Made by a program: the position numbers and the translations under genes. Of a stretch of DNA of 64,000 nt, positions 54,756-61,935 are shown piece after piece. The stretch is taken from positions 992,001-1,056,000 of the forward strand of contig OZ252287.1 of assembly GCA_965250085.1 (NCBI GenBank). Reading direction: 5' to 3'. The DNA comes from Candidatus Altimarinota bacterium. Its GTDB lineage: Bacteria > Patescibacteriota > Gracilibacteria > CAIRYL01. Below the pieces are notes generated by a model. That model saw only the letters and a program-made list of their open reading frames with translations, searched no databases and had not been told where the DNA came from. How positions within the stretch are numbered: the stretch's first letter is position 1; each line of letters begins with the position of its first letter.

Positions 54756-54842
54756 TGGTGCCGAGAGTGGGACTCGAACCCACACTCCCCGAGAGGAACG
54801 AGATTTTGAGTCTCGCGCGTCTACCAGTTTCGCCACCTCGGC
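54756..54842 (-). tRNA. tRNA-Leu (CAA)
   Basis: GCCGAGGTGGCGAAACTGGTAGACGCG-CGAGA CTCAAAA TCTCG, long variable arm, GGTTCGAGTCCC...ACCA. Confidence 0.95.
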
Positions 54843-57013: not shown

Positions 57014-57097
57014 AAATCCCCCTTGTTCCCCCCTTTGTCAAAGGGGGGAATCAAATTTCTTCCCCCTCTTTACAAAAGAGGGGTTAGGGGAGATTTC
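57014..57097. repeat. Inverted pair of CCCCCTTT..AAAGGGGG palindromic repeats
   Basis: AAATCCCCCTTGTTCCCCCCTTTGTCAAAGGGGGGAA ... TTCCCCCTCTTTACAAAAGAGGGGTTAGGGGAGATTT. Confidence 0.75.
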
Positions 57098-57170
57098 TTT
57101 TCACTGCGGAGATAGAGAAATCTCATCTTGTATTCTTTCCTCAAAAACACTACAATCCACCAGCTTTTTT

Positions 57171-57236
57171 GTGGGAGTGTTTCGATAGACTCAGCACTAA
57201 AAACCTATTCGAGTTTGATCGACATGTTTGCACCAC
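57171..57236 (+). promoter_or_regulatory. Putative L1 autoregulatory mRNA leader
   Basis: GTGGGAG ... ACCAC bracketing just upstream of rplA, like known L1-binding leaders. Confidence 0.5.
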
Positions 57237-57255
57237 GATTTTTTATTTCTTTTGT

Positions 57256-57954
57256 ATGAAACACGGTAAAAAATATCGAGCAGCGCTCGAAAAAATTGGT
57301 GATCCAAATGTCGAACACGGCTTAGAGGACGCCATTACAATAGTTGCAGGAGCTACTACCACAAAATTTGATCCTACAGTAGAGATCCATATTACCACGG
57401 GCTGTGACCCCAAACAGGCGGATGAAGTGGTGCGCACCACTCTAATGCTTCCAAATGGAACGGGGAAATCACCAAAGGTCGCTGTTTTTGCTGAAGAGGC
57501 AAAACAAAAAGAAGCGAAGTCTGCTGGTGCGGATATCGTTGGTGGGGAAGAACTGATAGAAACTGTGGGCAAAGGAAAAATAGATTTTGAGCTCGCAGTG
57601 TGTACTCCGGACATGATGAAACATCTTGCCAAAGCAGCAAAAGTGTTAGGCCCTAAGGGCCTTATGCCATCACCAAAAAACGGAACGGTGACAGATGATG
57701 TCAAAAAAGCAGTAGAACAAATCAAAAAAGGTCGTGTAGAACTAAAAATGGATTCCGAAGGGAATATCCATTCTATTCTTGGAAAGGTTTCTTTTGGCAC
57801 TAAAAAACTCCTCGAAAATGCCAGAGCTCTTCTCAAGACTGCAAAAGAAAATAAGCCATCAGGAGTGAAAGGAAAATATATTAACACCCTTCACTTGTCC
57901 ACTTCTATGGGGCCAGGCATTAAGGTGGAGGTGCAGAGTGCTATGAGTGAGTAA
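57256..57954 (+). CDS. rplA: 50S ribosomal protein L1
   Basis: KHGKKYR, KFDPTVE, LPNGTGK, LGPKGLMPSPK.GTV, STSMGPGI. Confidence 0.97.
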   Translation: MKHGKKYRAALEKIGDPNVEHGLEDAITIVAGATTTKFDPTVEIHITTGCDPKQADEVVRTTLMLPNGTGKSPKVAVFAEEAKQKEAKSAGADIVGGEELIETVGKGKIDFELAVCTPDMMKHLAKAAKVLGPKGLMPSPKNGTVTDDVKKAVEQIKKGRVELKMDSEGNIHSILGKVSFGTKKLLENARALLKTAKENKPSGVKGKYINTLHLSTSMGPGIKVEVQSAMSE

Positions 57955-57955
57955 T

Positions 57956-60900
57956 CTACTCCTCATTTGCACCAGCGAACTCCTTGGATAATCCACGAAA
58001 AGCGATATCTGCATCGTGCAATATTGTTTCGTCAGCGATTCCATCGTTTATCAGATGAAACATCTGTTTTTGCGTTTGAAGATTTTTTCCATGAACTTCG
58101 TCATAGGTTCCCTGTTCAAAGAACATTTCATATGCGGTAGGAAGATCTTCTTTTTTTGCTCTTGCTGCATTACGTTCTTCTTCATAAGCTCCACCTTCAA
58201 CTTTCCGGATCCACCTTTTTTTCATTTTTTGTAAAAATTGTTCTGGATATTGGCTGATAAGGGAAAAATATTGCACGTCATGATGGGTGAAATGATCACT
58301 ATCAATTCGGTGAGCTCTGTCTTCCGCCTGATATTGTTCCACATAATCTTCAGGAAGATCATCAAACACTACTGCTTTTGCTGCCGTAAAGGTGACACCC
58401 ATCGAACCGGCGGAATATGTGGCTATAAGCAATCTGCAATCAGGGTCATTTTGAAATCGTATGCGCTCGTAATCCAAATGTGCCATGGGACGACCTTCAG
58501 TTCCAACGACAGGATGTCCATTGTCTCCTATCTTCCAGCTTCCATCATTATGAGTCTGAAATAGCTGCGGTTTGCCACGCGCATTACGGATCAAGTTTTT
58601 TTTACTCGTCATGCCGGTGTACTTTGCTGGGCGCAAATGGGCAAAGAGACGGGCATACTTCTCCGCTTGTGCTTCATATCTGCAGAACAGAAGGATTTTC
58701 CTCTTTTCCCGCCATGCATACTCTATAATGCGCGCAACTTCTGCATCTTTTGGTGTGTCGTCATGTGCTCCGATATAATCCATATTATTTATGCTTTGCC
58801 GCAATGCGTGTTTTTTTGCAAAAAGGCTTCCTGTATTCACCCCTCTCTTTCTGTTTTTTCGGAGACCATCTACCTTGTTCACTTCGTCATCTGGTATATA
58901 TTTTCCATATTTTTGGCACCATTGGTCCCAGTGTAAAAACATTTCATAGATAGATTCTGCCTGTTCATCCGTCATAACAAACTTTCCCGCTTCTTCTGAG
59001 GAAATATATGTTTTGAGAGGCAGACAGTTGTGTTGTTGAGAAAGAGGCTGGCTTGGATCAATGGTGCTAAGTACATCTTGTTTACGGAAGCGAATAACAT
59101 GCTGCTCCTTGAGAATGCTTAGGGCACGAAGAGCTTTGGGATCATGAAAAGGAAAGACTGCTTCAAAAGCAGTGTCACTCTGATATTCCTTCTTTTCGGG
59201 AAAAAGAGCATGCATCATTCGGCGGAATTCTGTCGGATTTTTGAAAGGGGTAGCTGTCATGAGAAGAGAAAATCGCCCCTGTAATTTTTTTGATCCTTGT
59301 GATTGTTTGCTGTCTGTATTTTTTCTACTATGGGCTTCATCGTAAATGATGACCCCATCTCCACTTCCAGACAGAAGTTCAAATCTTTCGGAATCTTCTA
59401 TCTGGCGAAGGAACTCAATATTCGTAATGGTCCGATCCGGTCTTTGAGAATGGCGTAGCAGTTTTTTTCTTGCTATGGATGATATATTATGCAGGATCAA
59501 CATCTGTGCGTCCTCAAAGAACTTATGATTTTCTTCCATCCAGGTGGTGACGACGCTGTTGGGAGAGATGATCACGTTTTCTTCATCTGCGGTGCTGGCA
59601 AGCGCAACGACTGTTTTGCCAAGCCCCGGTTCATTGGCCAGTATAATGCCGGGAACCGCTTCTTTGATTTTTTGCCGTATTTTTACAACACAGTATTTTT
59701 GGAAGAAATACAATTCTGTTCCTTCTTTGAGGGATGGAATTTTTGACGCTTGGATGGATCTAAAGTTGTTGAGCGCCCTTTTGAGAATCTTACGCACCAA
59801 TGGAGTCGCGGACTCTGCAATGAGTTGTGTGACGTATGCTTCACCTGCGGCAAATGAAGCGGCAAATTGTTTGATGAGAATTTGTTCTGTAAATTGTGCC
59901 AGGATTTCGGTTCTCTGCGGATCCTGCCTGAGATCATCCAATGCCTTTTGTGACATCTGATCGATCATAGCAATGAGCATTTTGACCTCATCGTGTATAG
60001 CGGTTTTGGTTATTTGGAGCAAGCTTTGTTCACTCCTGGTGTGGGACGTGATATCAATACCCATGACCTTGATATCGTTGAGCTTCCCGTGCCGCAAGGG
60101 TACTGTGACTTCAAATGTGCCATCATCTGTTACGTTGACTCTTCTGTTCCAGCATCCAGAAATGTAGATATGTGAAGCCTCCGGGGCATGGCCTGAGACG
60201 GTGACGGTGTTTTCTCCTGTCTGTTCCGGTATTCTGCTGAGTGAAGCTTCCGGCAGCAATAATTCATATTCTGACAGATACTTCTCTTCGCGGGATATGC
60301 CTCTTGGTCCACGAAACCCCCGAAAGCTTGTAATCACCAGCTGGTCTATCTCCTCCTCACTCAGCTCCGGATGCGCCATCTGTATGTACATTTTGAGCTT
60401 AAGTGGATCATGCTGCAAAGCCGCAATCGCATCCTCCAAAGCATACTCCGCTAGCTCTTCAGACTTCTGATCTTCTAGACTCTCTACATCATGCCCGGCA
60501 AGAGCCCTCCACTTTTTCAGTTGCTCAGCTTTACCATCAATCCCAAAAACTTTTCCTATTCGCCAAAGATATCCTGCCACACTAAGAGACTCTCCATTTG
60601 CCAGTTGAAACGGATTTCTTATATATGTAGATACCTTCCCTACATTTGCCTTCGCACAGGCTTCATAATCTTCCCGTGCATGCTCTCTGAAATACTCTTC
60701 GTCGGTTTCTCTATATTCTACAACCTCCGCTAGCTCTTTCCACATCTTGAATTGTTCCTTCCAAGAAGCAATCCCAAAAACTCTTCCGATTCTTCTTAAA
60801 TACGTATCGGGAGTAATAGACTCTCCATTTGCCAGTTGAAATAAATTTTTCCTAGATGTAACAACTTTCCCTCCATTTGCCTTCGCACAGGCTTCATAGT

Positions 60901-61885
60901 CTTCCCGTGCATGCTCTCTGAAATACTCTTTATCGGTTTTCATATATTCCACAACTTCTCTTCCAGTTAGTTCTTTCCACTTGTTGAACTGCTGTTTTCC
61001 AGTTTTTAAATCATATATTTTTCCTATTCTTTTTAGATATCCTAGTATCGTTAACTCCTCTCCATTTGCCAGTTGAAACGGATTTCTCATATATGTAACT
61101 ACCTTCCCTCCATTTGCCTTCGCACAGGCTTCATAATCTTCCCGTGCATGCTCTCTGAAATACTCTTTATCGGTTTTCATATATTCTACAACCTCCGCTA
61201 GCTCTTTCCACATCTTGAATTTTTCTTTCCAAGAAGCAAGACCATATGCCTTCCCTATTCTGATTAGATATCCTGCCACACCAAGAGACTCTCCATTTGC
61301 CAGTTGAAATGGATTTTTCACAGATCCAACTACCTTTCCTCCATTTGCCTTGGCACAAGCTTCATAATCTTCCCGTGCGTGCTCTCTGAAATACTCTTCG
61401 TCGGTTTCCATGTGCTCTACGACTTCCAATCCCGACAATTCCTTCCACTTCTTAAGGCGTTCTGCCGTCGTAGTCTCTCCAAACATTTTTCCTATGCGCC
61501 CAAGATATCCTGAAAAACGAAGAGATTCTCCATTTGCCAGTTGAAATGGATTTTTCATATGTGAAACCACCTTCCCTCCATTTGCCTTCGCACAGGCTTC
61601 ATAGTCCTGCTTTGCGTACTTTTCAAAATACAGCCGCGTTGTCTGTACCCCTTCAATATCTTTATCAAAAAGGATCCTCAGGTCATTCCTCAGCCGATCA
61701 ATATCTGATTCGAGCCCTTGTCCATTTGTTTTTTCTACATCAGAGAGAGCATTTTCTATTTGCTGTTTACTGGATTGGCTCATCTGTTCTATATCGCTTA
61801 CTTTCAATCTTTCGAGAGAATCAATTACATCTGTTCCCGATGTTATAAGTGCTTGCCGGAGATTGTCAGGTATCTCAATACCCAT
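57956..61885 (-). CDS. SNF2-family (SF2) ATPase with N-terminal tandem repeat array and Ig-like domain
   Basis: GIILANEPGLGKT (I), SPNSVVTTW (Ia), DEAH (II), TATP (III), KILLFC (IV), AGSMGVTFTAA (V), QAEDRAHRI (VI). Confidence 0.88.
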   Translation of the reverse strand: MGIEIPDNLRQALITSGTDVIDSLERLKVSDIEQMSQSSKQQIENALSDVEKTNGQGLESDIDRLRNDLRILFDKDIEGVQTTRLYFEKYAKQDYEACAKANGGKVVSHMKNPFQLANGESLRFSGYLGRIGKMFGETTTAERLKKWKELSGLEVVEHMETDEEYFREHAREDYEACAKANGGKVVGSVKNPFQLANGESLGVAGYLIRIGKAYGLASWKEKFKMWKELAEVVEYMKTDKEYFREHAREDYEACAKANGGKVVTYMRNPFQLANGEELTILGYLKRIGKIYDLKTGKQQFNKWKELTGREVVEYMKTDKEYFREHAREDYEACAKANGGKVVTSRKNLFQLANGESITPDTYLRRIGRVFGIASWKEQFKMWKELAEVVEYRETDEEYFREHAREDYEACAKANVGKVSTYIRNPFQLANGESLSVAGYLWRIGKVFGIDGKAEQLKKWRALAGHDVESLEDQKSEELAEYALEDAIAALQHDPLKLKMYIQMAHPELSEEEIDQLVITSFRGFRGPRGISREEKYLSEYELLLPEASLSRIPEQTGENTVTVSGHAPEASHIYISGCWNRRVNVTDDGTFEVTVPLRHGKLNDIKVMGIDITSHTRSEQSLLQITKTAIHDEVKMLIAMIDQMSQKALDDLRQDPQRTEILAQFTEQILIKQFAASFAAGEAYVTQLIAESATPLVRKILKRALNNFRSIQASKIPSLKEGTELYFFQKYCVVKIRQKIKEAVPGIILANEPGLGKTVVALASTADEENVIISPNSVVTTWMEENHKFFEDAQMLILHNISSIARKKLLRHSQRPDRTITNIEFLRQIEDSERFELLSGSGDGVIIYDEAHSRKNTDSKQSQGSKKLQGRFSLLMTATPFKNPTEFRRMMHALFPEKKEYQSDTAFEAVFPFHDPKALRALSILKEQHVIRFRKQDVLSTIDPSQPLSQQHNCLPLKTYISSEEAGKFVMTDEQAESIYEMFLHWDQWCQKYGKYIPDDEVNKVDGLRKNRKRGVNTGSLFAKKHALRQSINNMDYIGAHDDTPKDAEVARIIEYAWREKRKILLFCRYEAQAEKYARLFAHLRPAKYTGMTSKKNLIRNARGKPQLFQTHNDGSWKIGDNGHPVVGTEGRPMAHLDYERIRFQNDPDCRLLIATYSAGSMGVTFTAAKAVVFDDLPEDYVEQYQAEDRAHRIDSDHFTHHDVQYFSLISQYPEQFLQKMKKRWIRKVEGGAYEEERNAARAKKEDLPTAYEMFFEQGTYDEVHGKNLQTQKQMFHLINDGIADETILHDADIAFRGLSKEFAGANEE
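60490..61635 (-). repeat. Five intragenic tandem repeats with alternating 237/231-bp period
   Basis: CCATTTGCCAGTTGAAA recurs at 60594, 60825, 61062, 61293 and 61530. Confidence 0.95.
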
Positions 61886-61906
61886 TGTGTGGATTATAAG
61901 TTTGGC

Positions 61907-61935
61907 AAAATATCATGAAAAAAGCTATACGTCAA
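61907..61935 (-). promoter_or_regulatory. Possible sigma-70 promoter of the SNF2 gene
   Basis: TTGACG-17 nt-TATTTT. Confidence 0.45.

What the first reader, a model, noticed from the sequence alone, without database searches (positions are those of the whole stretch)
57956..61885. SNF2 motor fused to a five-module repeat array with fixed scaffold and hypervariable patches (candidate modular DNA-recognition system)
Seen: aa ~86-465 hold five 77/79-aa repeats, followed by an Ig-like beta domain (~aa 557-625) and a complete SNF2-type ATPase (motifs I-VI). The scaffold (YFREHAREDYEACAKANGGKV, NPFQLANGE, YLxRIG, WKEL) is nearly identical even at DNA level. Variation is confined to short patches. 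After GKVx: SHMK / GSVK / TYMR / TSRK / TYIR. After NGExx: RFSG / GVAG / TILG / TPDT / SVAG. The x in YLxR: G / I / K / R / W. A later patch: ETTTAER / LASWKEK / LKTGKQQ / IASWKEQ / IDGKAEQ. Knowledge: constant scaffold plus variable residues is the design of TALE, PPR and zinc-finger arrays, and TY.R..FG.SW loosely recalls helical homing-endonuclease-associated repeats. Inference: each module reads a short DNA (or protein) epitope and targets the translocase, for example in anti-phage defence or host manipulation. The gene is a lone insertion ending 2 nt from the rplA stop, with its own putative promoter. I do not recognise this architecture.
Basis: partly seen in the sequence, partly recalled or inferred. 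Interest (0 to 1): 0.88.

Follow-up and report, generated by a model that had tools for sequence, protein, structure and literature searches.

The report
SNF2 motor with swappable repeat array
This gene encodes a DNA-motor protein (SNF2 type) carrying five copies of a small, previously undescribed repeat module, and its relatives carry quite different repeat arrays in the same position, so the array looks like an exchangeable targeting part whose target is still unknown.

Summary
The 1309-aa minus-strand ORF (57956-61885) is real. It has an 85-aa leader, five 77/79-aa tandem repeats (aa 86-476), a helical linker, an Ig-like beta domain and an intact SNF2 ATPase.

The repeat matches no Pfam family. 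It defines a family of 53 representative proteins and about 260 units. Each unit folds with high confidence (pLDDT 91.6) as helix, beta-hairpin, helix, helix. No clear PDB match was found; the best Z was 3.8.

The strongest result is comparative. The C-terminal 830 aa form a conserved core found in more than 50 relatives, and their N-terminal parts differ. HNH_repeat-like arrays occur in 18, a second ~95-aa repeat in 15, this repeat in 3, and 16 are unclassified. One genome encodes the core alone, followed by five separate array genes.

Two details of the finding were overstated:
- The scaffold is not DNA-identical (dS 0.23-1.35).
- The variable patches show dN about equal to dS, not an excess.

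No evidence shows DNA binding, a per-module code or a defence role. The gene family is accessory, found in 9 of 401 genomes of the class.

Verdict: a new repeat family on an undescribed SNF2 family with exchangeable arrays. The function is inferred, not shown.

The parts
57956..61885 (-). Whole gene, 1309 aa plus stop codon
   Evidence: ORF list and translation P0001.
61893..61921 (-). Promoter-like site (TTTTCA, 17 nt, TATAAT) in the 75-nt gap upstream of the start codon
   Evidence: 10 of 12 matches. The count of such sites in the region is not above shuffles, so this is only a candidate.
61631..61885 (-). N-terminal leader, aa 1-85, acidic (net -7, pI 4.4)
   Evidence: No match to the leaders of relatives with jackhmmer.
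61394..61630 (-). Repeat unit R1, aa 86-164 (79 aa), the most divergent unit
61163..61393 (-). Repeat unit R2, aa 165-241 (77 aa)
   Evidence: R2 is 78% identical to R4.
60926..61162 (-). Repeat unit R3, aa 242-320 (79 aa)
60695..60925 (-). Repeat unit R4, aa 321-397 (77 aa)
60458..60694 (-). Repeat unit R5, aa 398-476 (79 aa); its tail diverges into the linker
60227..60457 (-). Helical linker, aa 477-553, the start of the conserved 830-aa core
   Evidence: The core is conserved at 32-50% identity over about 98% of aa 480-1309 in more than 50 proteins. Helices were predicted only by the low-confidence model.
60035..60226 (-). Ig-like beta domain, aa 554-617 (resembles Glucodextranase domain B)
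   Evidence: 23 bits, below the 27 cut-off. The same region in relative P0061 scores 27.8 bits and in P0065 20.4 bits.
59063..59707 (-). SNF2 ATPase N-lobe, aa 727-941 (GLGKT and DEAH stretches)
   Evidence: ResIII aa 727-881, SNF2-rel_dom aa 739-941. PDB sequence matches to Fft3, HELLS and Sso Rad54-like proteins, E 6.5e-11 to 7.7e-10. phrog_62 'DNA helicase' matches aa 642-1096 at 2.6e-44.
58304..58456 (-). SNF2 ATPase C-lobe core, aa 1144-1194 (includes QAEDRAHRID)
   Evidence: Helicase_C 32.3 bits against a 23.5 cut-off, profile positions 61-109 only. The lobe probably starts near aa 1040 (my reading).

Best explanation
The gene encodes a cytoplasmic SNF2-type, ATP-driven DNA translocase. 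It belongs to an accessory family that is patchily distributed among candidate-phyla-radiation bacteria of the Peregrinibacteria/Gracilibacteria kind.

The conserved part is the C-terminal 830 aa: helical linker, Ig-like domain and SNF2 motor. The five N-terminal repeat modules are each a helix, a beta-hairpin and two helices. Together they form an exchangeable substrate-recognition part that decides where or on what the motor acts.

The most probable ligand is nucleic acid or a DNA-bound protein. Contacts would be made by the positions that vary between modules: the loop before the hairpin, the second hairpin strand, the first turn of helix 2 and the helix 2-helix 3 loop.

Shown here: the anatomy, the module fold prediction, the exchange of arrays between relatives, the split form, the intact ATPase motifs and the patchy distribution.

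Inferred: that the array binds anything specific, what it binds, and the biological role.
For: 1. The architecture and the intact SNF2 signatures are established.

2. The repeat is a real, selected module.
- The scaffold has dN/dS of 0.02-0.26 despite dS of 0.23-1.35.
- 53 proteins were found among 1.84 billion representatives at E<=1e-3, 21 of them at E<=1e-10.
- About 260 units were recovered in 53 proteins.
- AF2 on a 43-row alignment gives pLDDT 91.6 with the same helix/hairpin/helix/helix in all three modelled units.

3. Arrays are exchanged on a constant core.
- A search with aa 480-1309 gave 94 hits. About 55 cover roughly 98% of the core at 32-50% identity, with N-terminal parts of 0-970 aa.
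- Of 52 relatives with an N-terminal part of at least 60 aa, 18 carry HNH_repeat-like units, 15 carry a ~95-aa 'type B' unit, 3 carry this repeat and 16 are unclassified.
- PF18780 exceeds its cut-off in P0066 (43.8 against 26) and P0064 (26.3).
- One N-terminal leader is shared by proteins with type A arrays (P0077, P0088) and type B arrays (P0081, P0083, P0085, P0089).

4. The repeat travels with other SF2 motors. ResIII is in 7 of 53, DEAD in 6, Helicase_C in 5, SWI2_SNF2 in 4 and SNF2-rel in 3.

5. A fission form exists. In G039 a 1058-aa core homologue (32% identity to aa 468-1288) has no array. It is followed on the same strand by five genes of related repeats that share a roughly 120-aa N-terminal domain of 52-59% identity.

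6. Positions that vary within the window's array are also those that vary within other arrays (Spearman 0.38 against the mean of 38 other arrays).
Against: - No binding of any kind has been shown.
- The array is near neutral (net +3 over 391 aa, pI 8.3), and units across the family average +1.7. This is weaker than most DNA-binding domains.
- Patch dN/dS is about 1 (0.33-1.8), which is also what unconstrained surface loops give. The correlation of variable positions with plain family-wide entropy (0.40) is as high as with within-array variation (0.38).
- The fold has no clear match to any solved DNA-binding domain. Foldseek found 0 hits at E<=1e-3 against the PDB, and the best VIA Z was 3.8.
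- Seventeen of the 53 repeat proteins pair the array not with a motor but with an unknown 240-350-aa domain.
- Most array genes in other genomes sit among housekeeping genes with no motor next to them.
- The window's own leader does not match the shared leader.
Confidence: 0.45

Rival explanations
1. Coded, TALE-like reading. Each module recognises a defined short DNA element through its variable patches, so the order of modules spells out a composite target site for the motor.
For: - The design is tandem modules with a fixed scaffold and variation confined to a few stretches.
- The same positions vary in other arrays.
- Unit number differs between relatives: 3-5 in the core family and up to 10 elsewhere.
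- G039 keeps several alternative array genes beside one motor.
Against: - About 24 of 79 positions vary, not one or two. Many variable residues are hydrophobic (F, V, I, L, W).
- There is no dN excess.
- The charge is near neutral.
- No similarity to a known DNA-reading repeat was found.
- Patch variants recur between units (R2/R4, R3/R5), as expected from block duplication.
- Packing of the modules could not be inspected.
Confidence: 0.12
2. Protein-binding scaffold. The modules bind proteins, such as nucleoid proteins, RNA polymerase, other subunits or proteins of mobile elements. The motor is then recruited to, or removes, a protein-DNA complex rather than reading DNA itself.
For: - The variable patches are of mixed hydrophobic and polar character and the net charge is near neutral.
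- 17 of 53 array proteins carry an unknown non-motor domain, and many array proteins have no enzyme domain at all.
- Small helical repeats commonly mediate protein contacts (general knowledge).
Against: - No partner is known.
- In relatives the array is replaced by PF18780 units, which are described as homing-endonuclease-associated, and by units that to my eye look like helix-turn-helix modules (P0068, P0059, P0074; Pfam gives only sub-threshold HTH hints for P0068). That points more to nucleic acid.
Confidence: 0.25
3. Structural spacer or regulatory arm with no specific ligand. The array is an elongated, duplicating linker, for example for autoinhibition or spacing. The variable patches are simply unconstrained loops.
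For: - Patch dN is about equal to dS.
- Variable positions track general family entropy.
- Units cluster by protein (0.55-0.67 identity within against 0.28-0.42 between), as expected from local duplication.
Against: - Purifying selection on the scaffold is strong over long divergence.
- The module is kept across 53 protein clusters and several architectures.
- Stand-alone array genes are kept beside a motor gene.
- Replacement is by other ordered repeat arrays rather than by disordered linkers.
Confidence: 0.1

Closest known systems
SNF2/Swi2 family ATPases with accessory targeting domains (for example bacterial RapA, eukaryotic Fun30/Fft3, HELLS; Sulfolobus Rad54-like core)
   Same: The same two-lobe ATPase with SNF2-rel_dom and Helicase_C above Pfam cut-offs. 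The best solved relatives by sequence are Fft3, HELLS and 1z63 (E 6.5e-11 to 7.7e-10, ATPase lobe only).
   Different: Nothing outside the ATPase matches. The leader, the five-unit array, the Ig-like domain and the long stretch between the lobes have no counterpart in those proteins. That RapA and the others use accessory domains for targeting is recalled knowledge.
Pfam PF18780 HNH_repeat (homing endonuclease associated repeat)
   Same: A small tandem module of similar size occupies exactly this position in 18 of 52 relatives of the same core. It is therefore the functional counterpart by position.
   Different: The window's repeat does not match it. There is no Pfam hit at E<=1, and profile-profile P is 0.061 over 13 columns against 0.18-0.42 for reversed controls. 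The window's unit has a beta-hairpin. The function of PF18780 is itself unstudied in the papers I could search: one paper, a table row only.
Pfam PF03457 HA (helicase associated domain)
   Same: The concept is the same: a short module found in multiple copies on helicases (description recalled from Pfam). Three weak hits of the repeat profile (P0025, P0041, P0048) look HA-like to my eye.
   Different: The HA model finds nothing in the window's genome at E<=1. It does not appear among Pfam hits of P0001 or among the 25 families listed for 43 array segments.
TALE, PPR and zinc-finger arrays
   Same: Tandem modules with a fixed scaffold and localised variation.
   Different: There is no sequence or fold match. 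Variation spans about 24 positions in four stretches. Nothing here shows a code or nucleic-acid binding.
SNF2 proteins of defence systems (DISARM DrmD, Zorya ZorD, Dpd DpdE)
   Same: Weak PADLOC matches over the ATPase: ZorD 53.4 bits, DpdE 52.9, DrmD 16.1. The family is an accessory gene with patchy distribution.
   Different: NCBIfam equivalog cut-offs are missed by far: ZorD 24.6 against 1500 and DrmD 19.6 against 950. No partner genes are present; the neighbours are L1, adenylosuccinate lyase, a cytidylyltransferase-like gene and PrmC.
LysM domain (PF01476)
   Same: A true LysM protein (P0038) was picked up by the repeat profile. The second hairpin strand, helix 2 and helix 3 align with the first strand and the two helices of LysM.
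   Different: Each LysM unit scores 10 bits or less, and the whole-protein score is a sum over seven units. P0001 has no LysM hit in Pfam. The predicted strand order differs (my reading), and the protein has no signal peptide that I could see.

Membership tests
SNF2 family ATPase (PF00176 + PF00271) | SNF2-related N-lobe above Pfam's gathering score | tested here: met
   63.2 bits against 24.9, aa 739-941.
SNF2 family ATPase (PF00176 + PF00271) | Helicase C-terminal lobe above the gathering score | tested here: met
   32.3 bits against 23.5, aa 1144-1194, second half of the profile only.
SNF2 family ATPase (PF00176 + PF00271) | Catalytic motifs present (Walker A GxGKT, DExH, arginine-rich motif VI) | tested here: met
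   GLGKT, DEAH and QAEDRAHRID can be read. They are invariant or nearly so in the 28-row core alignment. Motif definitions are recalled.
SNF2 family ATPase (PF00176 + PF00271) | DNA-dependent ATPase and translocase activity | not testable with these tools
   Needs a biochemical assay.
HNH_repeat (PF18780) | Match of the repeat to the family profile | tested here: not met
   No hit for P0001 at E<=1. hhalign of the repeat profile against the type A units of relatives gives P=0.061 over 13 columns. Relatives P0066 and P0064 do reach the cut-off.
HA helicase-associated domain (PF03457) | Match to the family profile | tested here: not met
   0 matches at E<=1 in the six-frame search of the window's genome. 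Not among the hits.
LysM (PF01476) | Match to the family profile | tested here: not met
   No LysM hit for P0001. The reverse comparison gives 10 bits or less per unit.
LysM (PF01476) | Beta-alpha-alpha-beta fold | tested here: inconclusive
   The predicted order is helix, hairpin, helix, helix.
TALE/PPR-like coded arrays | Tandem near-identical modules | tested here: met
   Five units with 57-66% identity to R1 and up to 78% between R2 and R4.
TALE/PPR-like coded arrays | Specificity residues at one or two fixed positions, under diversifying selection | tested here: not met
   About 24 variable columns in four stretches. Patch dN/dS is 0.33-1.8, with no excess.
TALE/PPR-like coded arrays | One module contacts one base or short element of a nucleic acid | not testable with these tools
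   No tool here models DNA. Needs SELEX, EMSA or a structure.
Defence SNF2 proteins (DrmD, ZorD, DpdE) | Full-length match above the curated equivalog cut-off | tested here: not met
   ZorD 24.6 against 1500, DrmD 19.6 against 950. PADLOC matches cover the ATPase only.
Defence SNF2 proteins (DrmD, ZorD, DpdE) | Partner genes of the system adjacent | tested here: not met
   The neighbours are L1, adenylosuccinate lyase, a cytidylyltransferase-like gene and PrmC.
New 'C-x-N-G-E' repeat family (defined here) | Unit matches the iterated repeat profile in tandem copies | tested here: met
   Five units in P0001. 261 units in 53 proteins at domain E<1e-3. The window's units seeded the profile, so its own match is by construction.
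Ig-like + SNF2 core family (defined here) | Collinear match over aa 480-1309 | tested here: met
   About 55 proteins at 32-50% identity over roughly 98% of the region. 38 invariant columns in a 28-row alignment.

The most novel reading that the evidence does not exclude
The arrays are a natural plug-in recognition system for SF2 motors in candidate-phyla-radiation bacteria.
- Each module of about 78 aa contributes one sub-site of a composite DNA (or protein) target through its variable hairpin and helix-2 face.
- Whole arrays of unrelated repeat types are swapped onto one conserved Ig-like/SNF2 core.
- Some genomes (G039) keep a cassette of alternative array subunits for a single motor, much as type I restriction systems keep alternative specificity subunits.

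If so, the family would be a new programmable targeting scaffold with a new fold.
Probability: 0.12. Interest if true: 0.9.

Novelty: new variant of a known kind. Interest (0 to 1): 0.62.

Why it matters
SNF2 motors are understood mainly in eukaryotic chromatin. Bacterial ones outside RapA and a few defence systems are poorly known.

This work defines a conserved Ig-like/SNF2 core in candidate-phyla-radiation bacteria whose N-terminal part is a slot filled by different tandem-module arrays. One of those arrays is a repeat family with no Pfam entry, a confidently predicted fold and no clear solved relative.

That gives a concrete, testable system for asking how a prokaryotic SNF2 motor is aimed. 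It also gives a first functional context, 'motor-associated array', for the equally unstudied HNH_repeat family.

If the modules prove to read DNA or proteins in a combinable way, they would be of interest as a new engineering scaffold. If they do not, the result is still a clean description of a new domain family and of domain exchange in reduced genomes.

Tried and rejected
- Single-sequence AF2 of aa 76-576 was useless (pLDDT 40.3). It was replaced by the 43-row alignment model.
- Fold searches gave no clear match. Foldseek against the PDB gave 0 hits at E<=1e-3. VIA-align over 48,161 chains gave a best Z of 3.8 and none at 5 or more. BFVD gave 0 hits at E<=1e-3; the best was a Mimivirus 'putative helicase domain protein' at E 0.047, prob 0.54, 218 columns, 19% identity, which I could not fetch or follow. 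This shows neither that the fold is new nor that it is known.
- The ESM Atlas gave no usable hit for aa 165-397 of P0001 or for the unknown N-domain of P0017.
- A Pfam scan of 43 three-unit segments at E<=10 listed only scattered hits summed over repeats (CENP-S in 11 of 43, BRCT in 3 of 43, and so on). Only the first 25 of 205 families are shown. The BRCT hit in P0001 (24.5 bits, no single stretch passing) is such a sum over a short 'GGKV' stretch, and I reject it.
- Diversity-generating retroelement idea: rejected by eye. Differences between units are not confined to adenine positions. I did not search for a reverse transcriptase.
- Recent homogenisation by gene conversion of the scaffold: rejected, since scaffold dS is 0.23-1.35.
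- Synteny test for an insertion: the flanks of the L1 gene (1.5 kb each side) in 10 relatives of the same family hold none of the window's neighbouring genes, so nothing can be said.
- Phage origin: the phage collection holds only generic SNF2 matches at 25% identity or less over the ATPase, in 30 records, none covering 80% of the query. PHROGs hits to array proteins are sums without a passing stretch.
- PADLOC found nothing for the unknown N-domain proteins P0016, P0017, P0019 and P0037.
- Complex prediction of the G039 core (aa 1-860, 28-row alignment) with the array proteins' N-terminal domain (4-row alignment): no verdict, score 0.00 in both runs, controls not run. This is not evidence either way.
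- Literature: 'SNF2' + 'Peregrinibacteria' returned one paper, on methyltransferases; I saw only the listing. 'Homing endonuclease associated repeat' returned 0 papers. 'PF18780' returned one paper, of which I read one table passage. 'PF03457' returned three papers, listings only. I found no description of this architecture in those searches. Supplements were not consulted.

Full report
WHAT IS THERE

The window holds a 1309-aa open reading frame on the minus strand, 57956..61885 (translation P0001). On one side it converges on a ribosomal protein L1 gene (57169..57954, Pfam Ribosomal_L1 197.5 bits), with 1 nt between the two stop codons. On the other side it lies 75 nt downstream of a cytidylyltransferase-like gene on the same strand. 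Adenylosuccinate lyase and PrmC lie beyond. A tRNA-Leu lies at 54756-54842. G+C content of the gene (0.41-0.49) is close to that of its surroundings. The assembly is one contig of 1,368,807 bases, and the array occurs once in it.

THE REPEATS

Five units are present: aa 86-164, 165-241, 242-320, 321-397 and 398-476, of 79/77/79/77/79 aa. Of 79 aligned columns, 32 are invariant. Tandem Repeats Finder scores the two-unit period (468 nt, 79% matches, score 1343) above the one-unit period (231 nt, 75% matches, score 1058).

R2 and R4 are the closest pair at 78% identity. This fits duplication of a two-unit block. It also explains why R2/R4 and R3/R5 share some of the 'hypervariable' patch variants.

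I computed Nei-Gojobori distances separately for scaffold and patch codons.
- In the 42 scaffold codons, dS is 0.23-1.35 and dN is 0.01-0.16. The scaffold is old and kept by purifying selection, not freshly copied.
- In the 24 patch codons, dN is 0.42-0.86 and dS is 0.45-2.6, with one pair saturated. The ratio runs from 0.33 to 1.8. Because the patch columns were chosen for varying, this is an upper view, and it shows no excess.

THE REPEAT FAMILY

Pfam, NCBIfam and PADLOC give no family for the repeat. A profile of the five units, searched against 1.84 billion representatives, found 53 proteins at E<=1e-3. Of these, 21 are at E<=1e-10 and 5 at E<=1e-30, including the query.

Iterating the profile on those proteins recovers 261 units in 53 proteins, with periods from about 65 to 100 aa, mostly 77-97. 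The conserved core is an aromatic pair at the start, a C-x-N-G-E hairpin, a Y-L-x-R helix and an L-x-x-L-K-x-x-A-G helix.

Among the 53 proteins, ResIII occurs in 7, DEAD in 6, Helicase_C in 5, SWI2_SNF2 in 4 and SNF2-rel_dom in 3. Four that I checked (P0020, P0023, P0027, P0042) are N-terminal ResIII/SWI2_SNF2 helicases with C-terminal arrays. Seventeen share an unknown 240-350-aa N-terminal domain that has no Pfam, PADLOC or Atlas match in the members tested.

Three weak hits (P0025, P0041, P0048) carry another repeat that looks like Pfam's HA domain to me (recalled). One (P0038) is a true LysM protein that scores only by summing seven matches of 10 bits or less.

Units within one protein are more alike (0.55-0.67 identity) than units of different proteins (0.28-0.42), so arrays grow within lineages. 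The positions that vary within the window's array tend to vary within other arrays too (Spearman 0.38). They track overall family entropy equally well (0.40).

FOLD

A 43-row alignment of three-unit stretches was built entirely from references and stored proteins. With it, AF2 gave pLDDT 91.6 and pTM 0.62 for aa 165-397. Each unit is a 15-18-residue helix, a loop, a two-strand hairpin, and two helices of 11-14 residues.

Foldseek (PDB and BFVD) and VIA-align over 48,161 chains gave nothing convincing. The best was Z 3.8, and every row under Z 4 is an unrelated small helical domain. The fold is therefore 'no clear match', not 'new'.

THE CORE AND ITS EXCHANGEABLE ARRAYS

The first homology search drew its words from the first 500 residues. 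It found only two close relatives, P0002 and P0003, both with the same repeat.

Searching aa 480-1309 changed the picture. It gave 94 hits, about 55 of which cover roughly 98% of the region at 32-50% identity. Lengths run from 779 to 1900 aa. A few carry source names: Peregrinibacteria, Peribacteraceae, Gracilibacteria, and single records labelled Bacteroidales, Micrarchaeota and Omnitrophota.

Their N-terminal parts (0-970 aa) are mostly other tandem arrays. I built profiles for two of them.
- Type A, about 66 aa, is present in 18 of 52 relatives. It reaches Pfam's HNH_repeat cut-off in P0066 (43.8 bits) and P0064 (26.3 bits).
- Type B, about 95 aa, is present in 15 of 52 relatives.
- The window's repeat is present in 3 of 52 (P0002, P0009, P0080).
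- Sixteen are unclassified. Some of these look like repeated helix-turn-helix units to my eye, and Pfam gives only sub-threshold HTH hints for P0068.

A roughly 80-aa leader is shared between type A and type B proteins, but it is not detectably shared with the window protein.

Profile-profile comparison gives weak, collinear similarity between the window's repeat and type B (P 0.0024, 50 columns). It gives none with type A (P 0.061). Reversed controls give 0.18-0.42.

SPLIT FORM

In G039 a 1058-aa homologue of the core (32% identity to aa 468-1288) lacks the array. It is followed on the same strand by five genes (597, 363, 239, 404 and at least 263 aa). One is interrupted by masked bases, and the contig ends in the last. 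These genes hold 1-5 related units each. Four of them begin with a common 120-aa domain of 52-59% identity.

Fusion in one genome and adjacency in another is classical evidence of a functional link. The multiplicity suggests alternative subunits. A complex prediction for this pair gave no verdict and is not used.

DISTRIBUTION

The core family was found in 9 of 401 sampled genomes of the class (8 of 229 genera). It was found in 0 of 11 genomes of the window's family and 0 of 8 further genomes of its order, at E<=1e-20. The narrow repeat profile was found in 10 of 401 genomes. These are samples, and several genomes are incomplete. The gene is clearly accessory.

One relative (G060) has 63 in-frame TGA codons. 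Read with table 25, they give glycine at conserved glycine positions. A database translation of the same protein with tryptophan spoils the Walker A motif (P0009).

HOW IT MOST LIKELY WORKS

Shown: an intact SNF2 ATPase; a conserved pre-ATPase region with an Ig-like domain; a selected, well-folded five-unit array; exchange of arrays on the same core; the same repeat on other SF2 motors; and a split form.

Inferred: the array is the part that selects the substrate of the motor. I put 0.45 on this general model. Within it, I lean towards nucleic acid or a DNA-bound protein as the ligand. The reasons are that the partners are DNA motors and that the positional counterparts include homing-endonuclease-associated and HTH-like units.

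The near-neutral charge, the mixed chemistry of the variable residues and the lack of a dN excess keep a protein-binding scaffold (0.25) and a ligand-less arm (0.10) alive. The strict TALE-like code gets 0.12.

Nothing supports a defence role beyond patchy distribution and weak ATPase-only matches to ZorD, DpdE and DrmD. One array gene in another genome lies next to a Cas12a locus, which is a single anecdote.

COMPARISON AND NOVELTY

As an enzyme it is a member of the SNF2 family (features met). Its repeat is not a member of HNH_repeat, HA or LysM by the profile tests run here, although it occupies the place that HNH_repeat arrays hold in relatives.

I found no paper on this architecture in four searches. 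I therefore rate it a new variant of a known kind: an SNF2 motor with an accessory recognition part, where both the part (a new repeat family) and the exchange pattern are undescribed.

Interest is 0.62. It is a clear and testable system, but its function is still inferred.

Noticed in passing
L039 (G039 contig 19) 7742-16877: An operon-like row: a 1058-aa homologue of the Ig-like/SNF2 core without an array, followed by five genes encoding related repeat arrays. Four of them begin with a shared 120-aa N-terminal domain. The contig ends inside the last gene, and one gene contains masked bases.
   Followed up: partly
L044 (G392 contig 4) 7063-9177 and 10109-13954: A 704-aa protein with five units of the repeat lies about 930 nt from, and divergent to, a Cas12a (Cpf1) gene (RuvC_1 275 bits, REC1 158 bits). 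ORFs that look like cas4 and cas1 to my eye follow it. This is a single case.
   Followed up: partly
L003 / L038 (G060 contig 7), gene at L038 9522-13175: The closest genome-held relative (43% identity) has 63 in-frame TGA codons. Table 25 (TGA = Gly) restores conserved glycines such as the Walker A GLGKT. A database translation (P0009) shows W at those places.
   Followed up: yes
P0016, P0017, P0019 and 14 more proteins (N-terminal 240-350 aa): Seventeen of the 53 repeat-bearing representatives share an N-terminal domain. It has no Pfam, PADLOC or ESM Atlas match in the members tested. It is the commonest partner of the repeat and is unexplained.
   Followed up: partly
P0003 (1737 aa, metagenomic): Eight units of the repeat are fused to a different SNF2 ATPase (weak DrmD/DpdE-like matches). 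A long C-terminal region contains what looks to me like a SAM-methyltransferase motif (recalled, not tested).
   Followed up: no
P0038, P0025, P0041, P0048: Weak hits of the repeat profile include a true LysM protein, whose helix pair resembles helices 2-3 of the unit. They also include three proteins with a 65-70-aa repeat resembling Pfam's HA helicase-associated domain. A deep relationship among these small modules is possible but unproven.
   Followed up: partly
window 57169-57954: The L1 gene's listed ORF starts at a TTG, 29 codons before the first ATG. Relatives align only from about residue 17-29 onward, so the true start is probably the internal ATG. Its neighbours are not conserved in relatives of the same family.
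   Followed up: partly
window 57025-57051: A strong terminator-like hairpin (12 pairs, 6 G-C, T-rich tail) lies on the plus strand between the adenylosuccinate lyase gene and the L1 gene.
   Followed up: no
P0062/P0083 and P0081/P0097: Two pairs of core-family proteins come from the same contigs (830,567 and 274,717 bases). Some genomes therefore hold two paralogues. In both pairs, both members carry type B arrays with different unit numbers.
   Followed up: no
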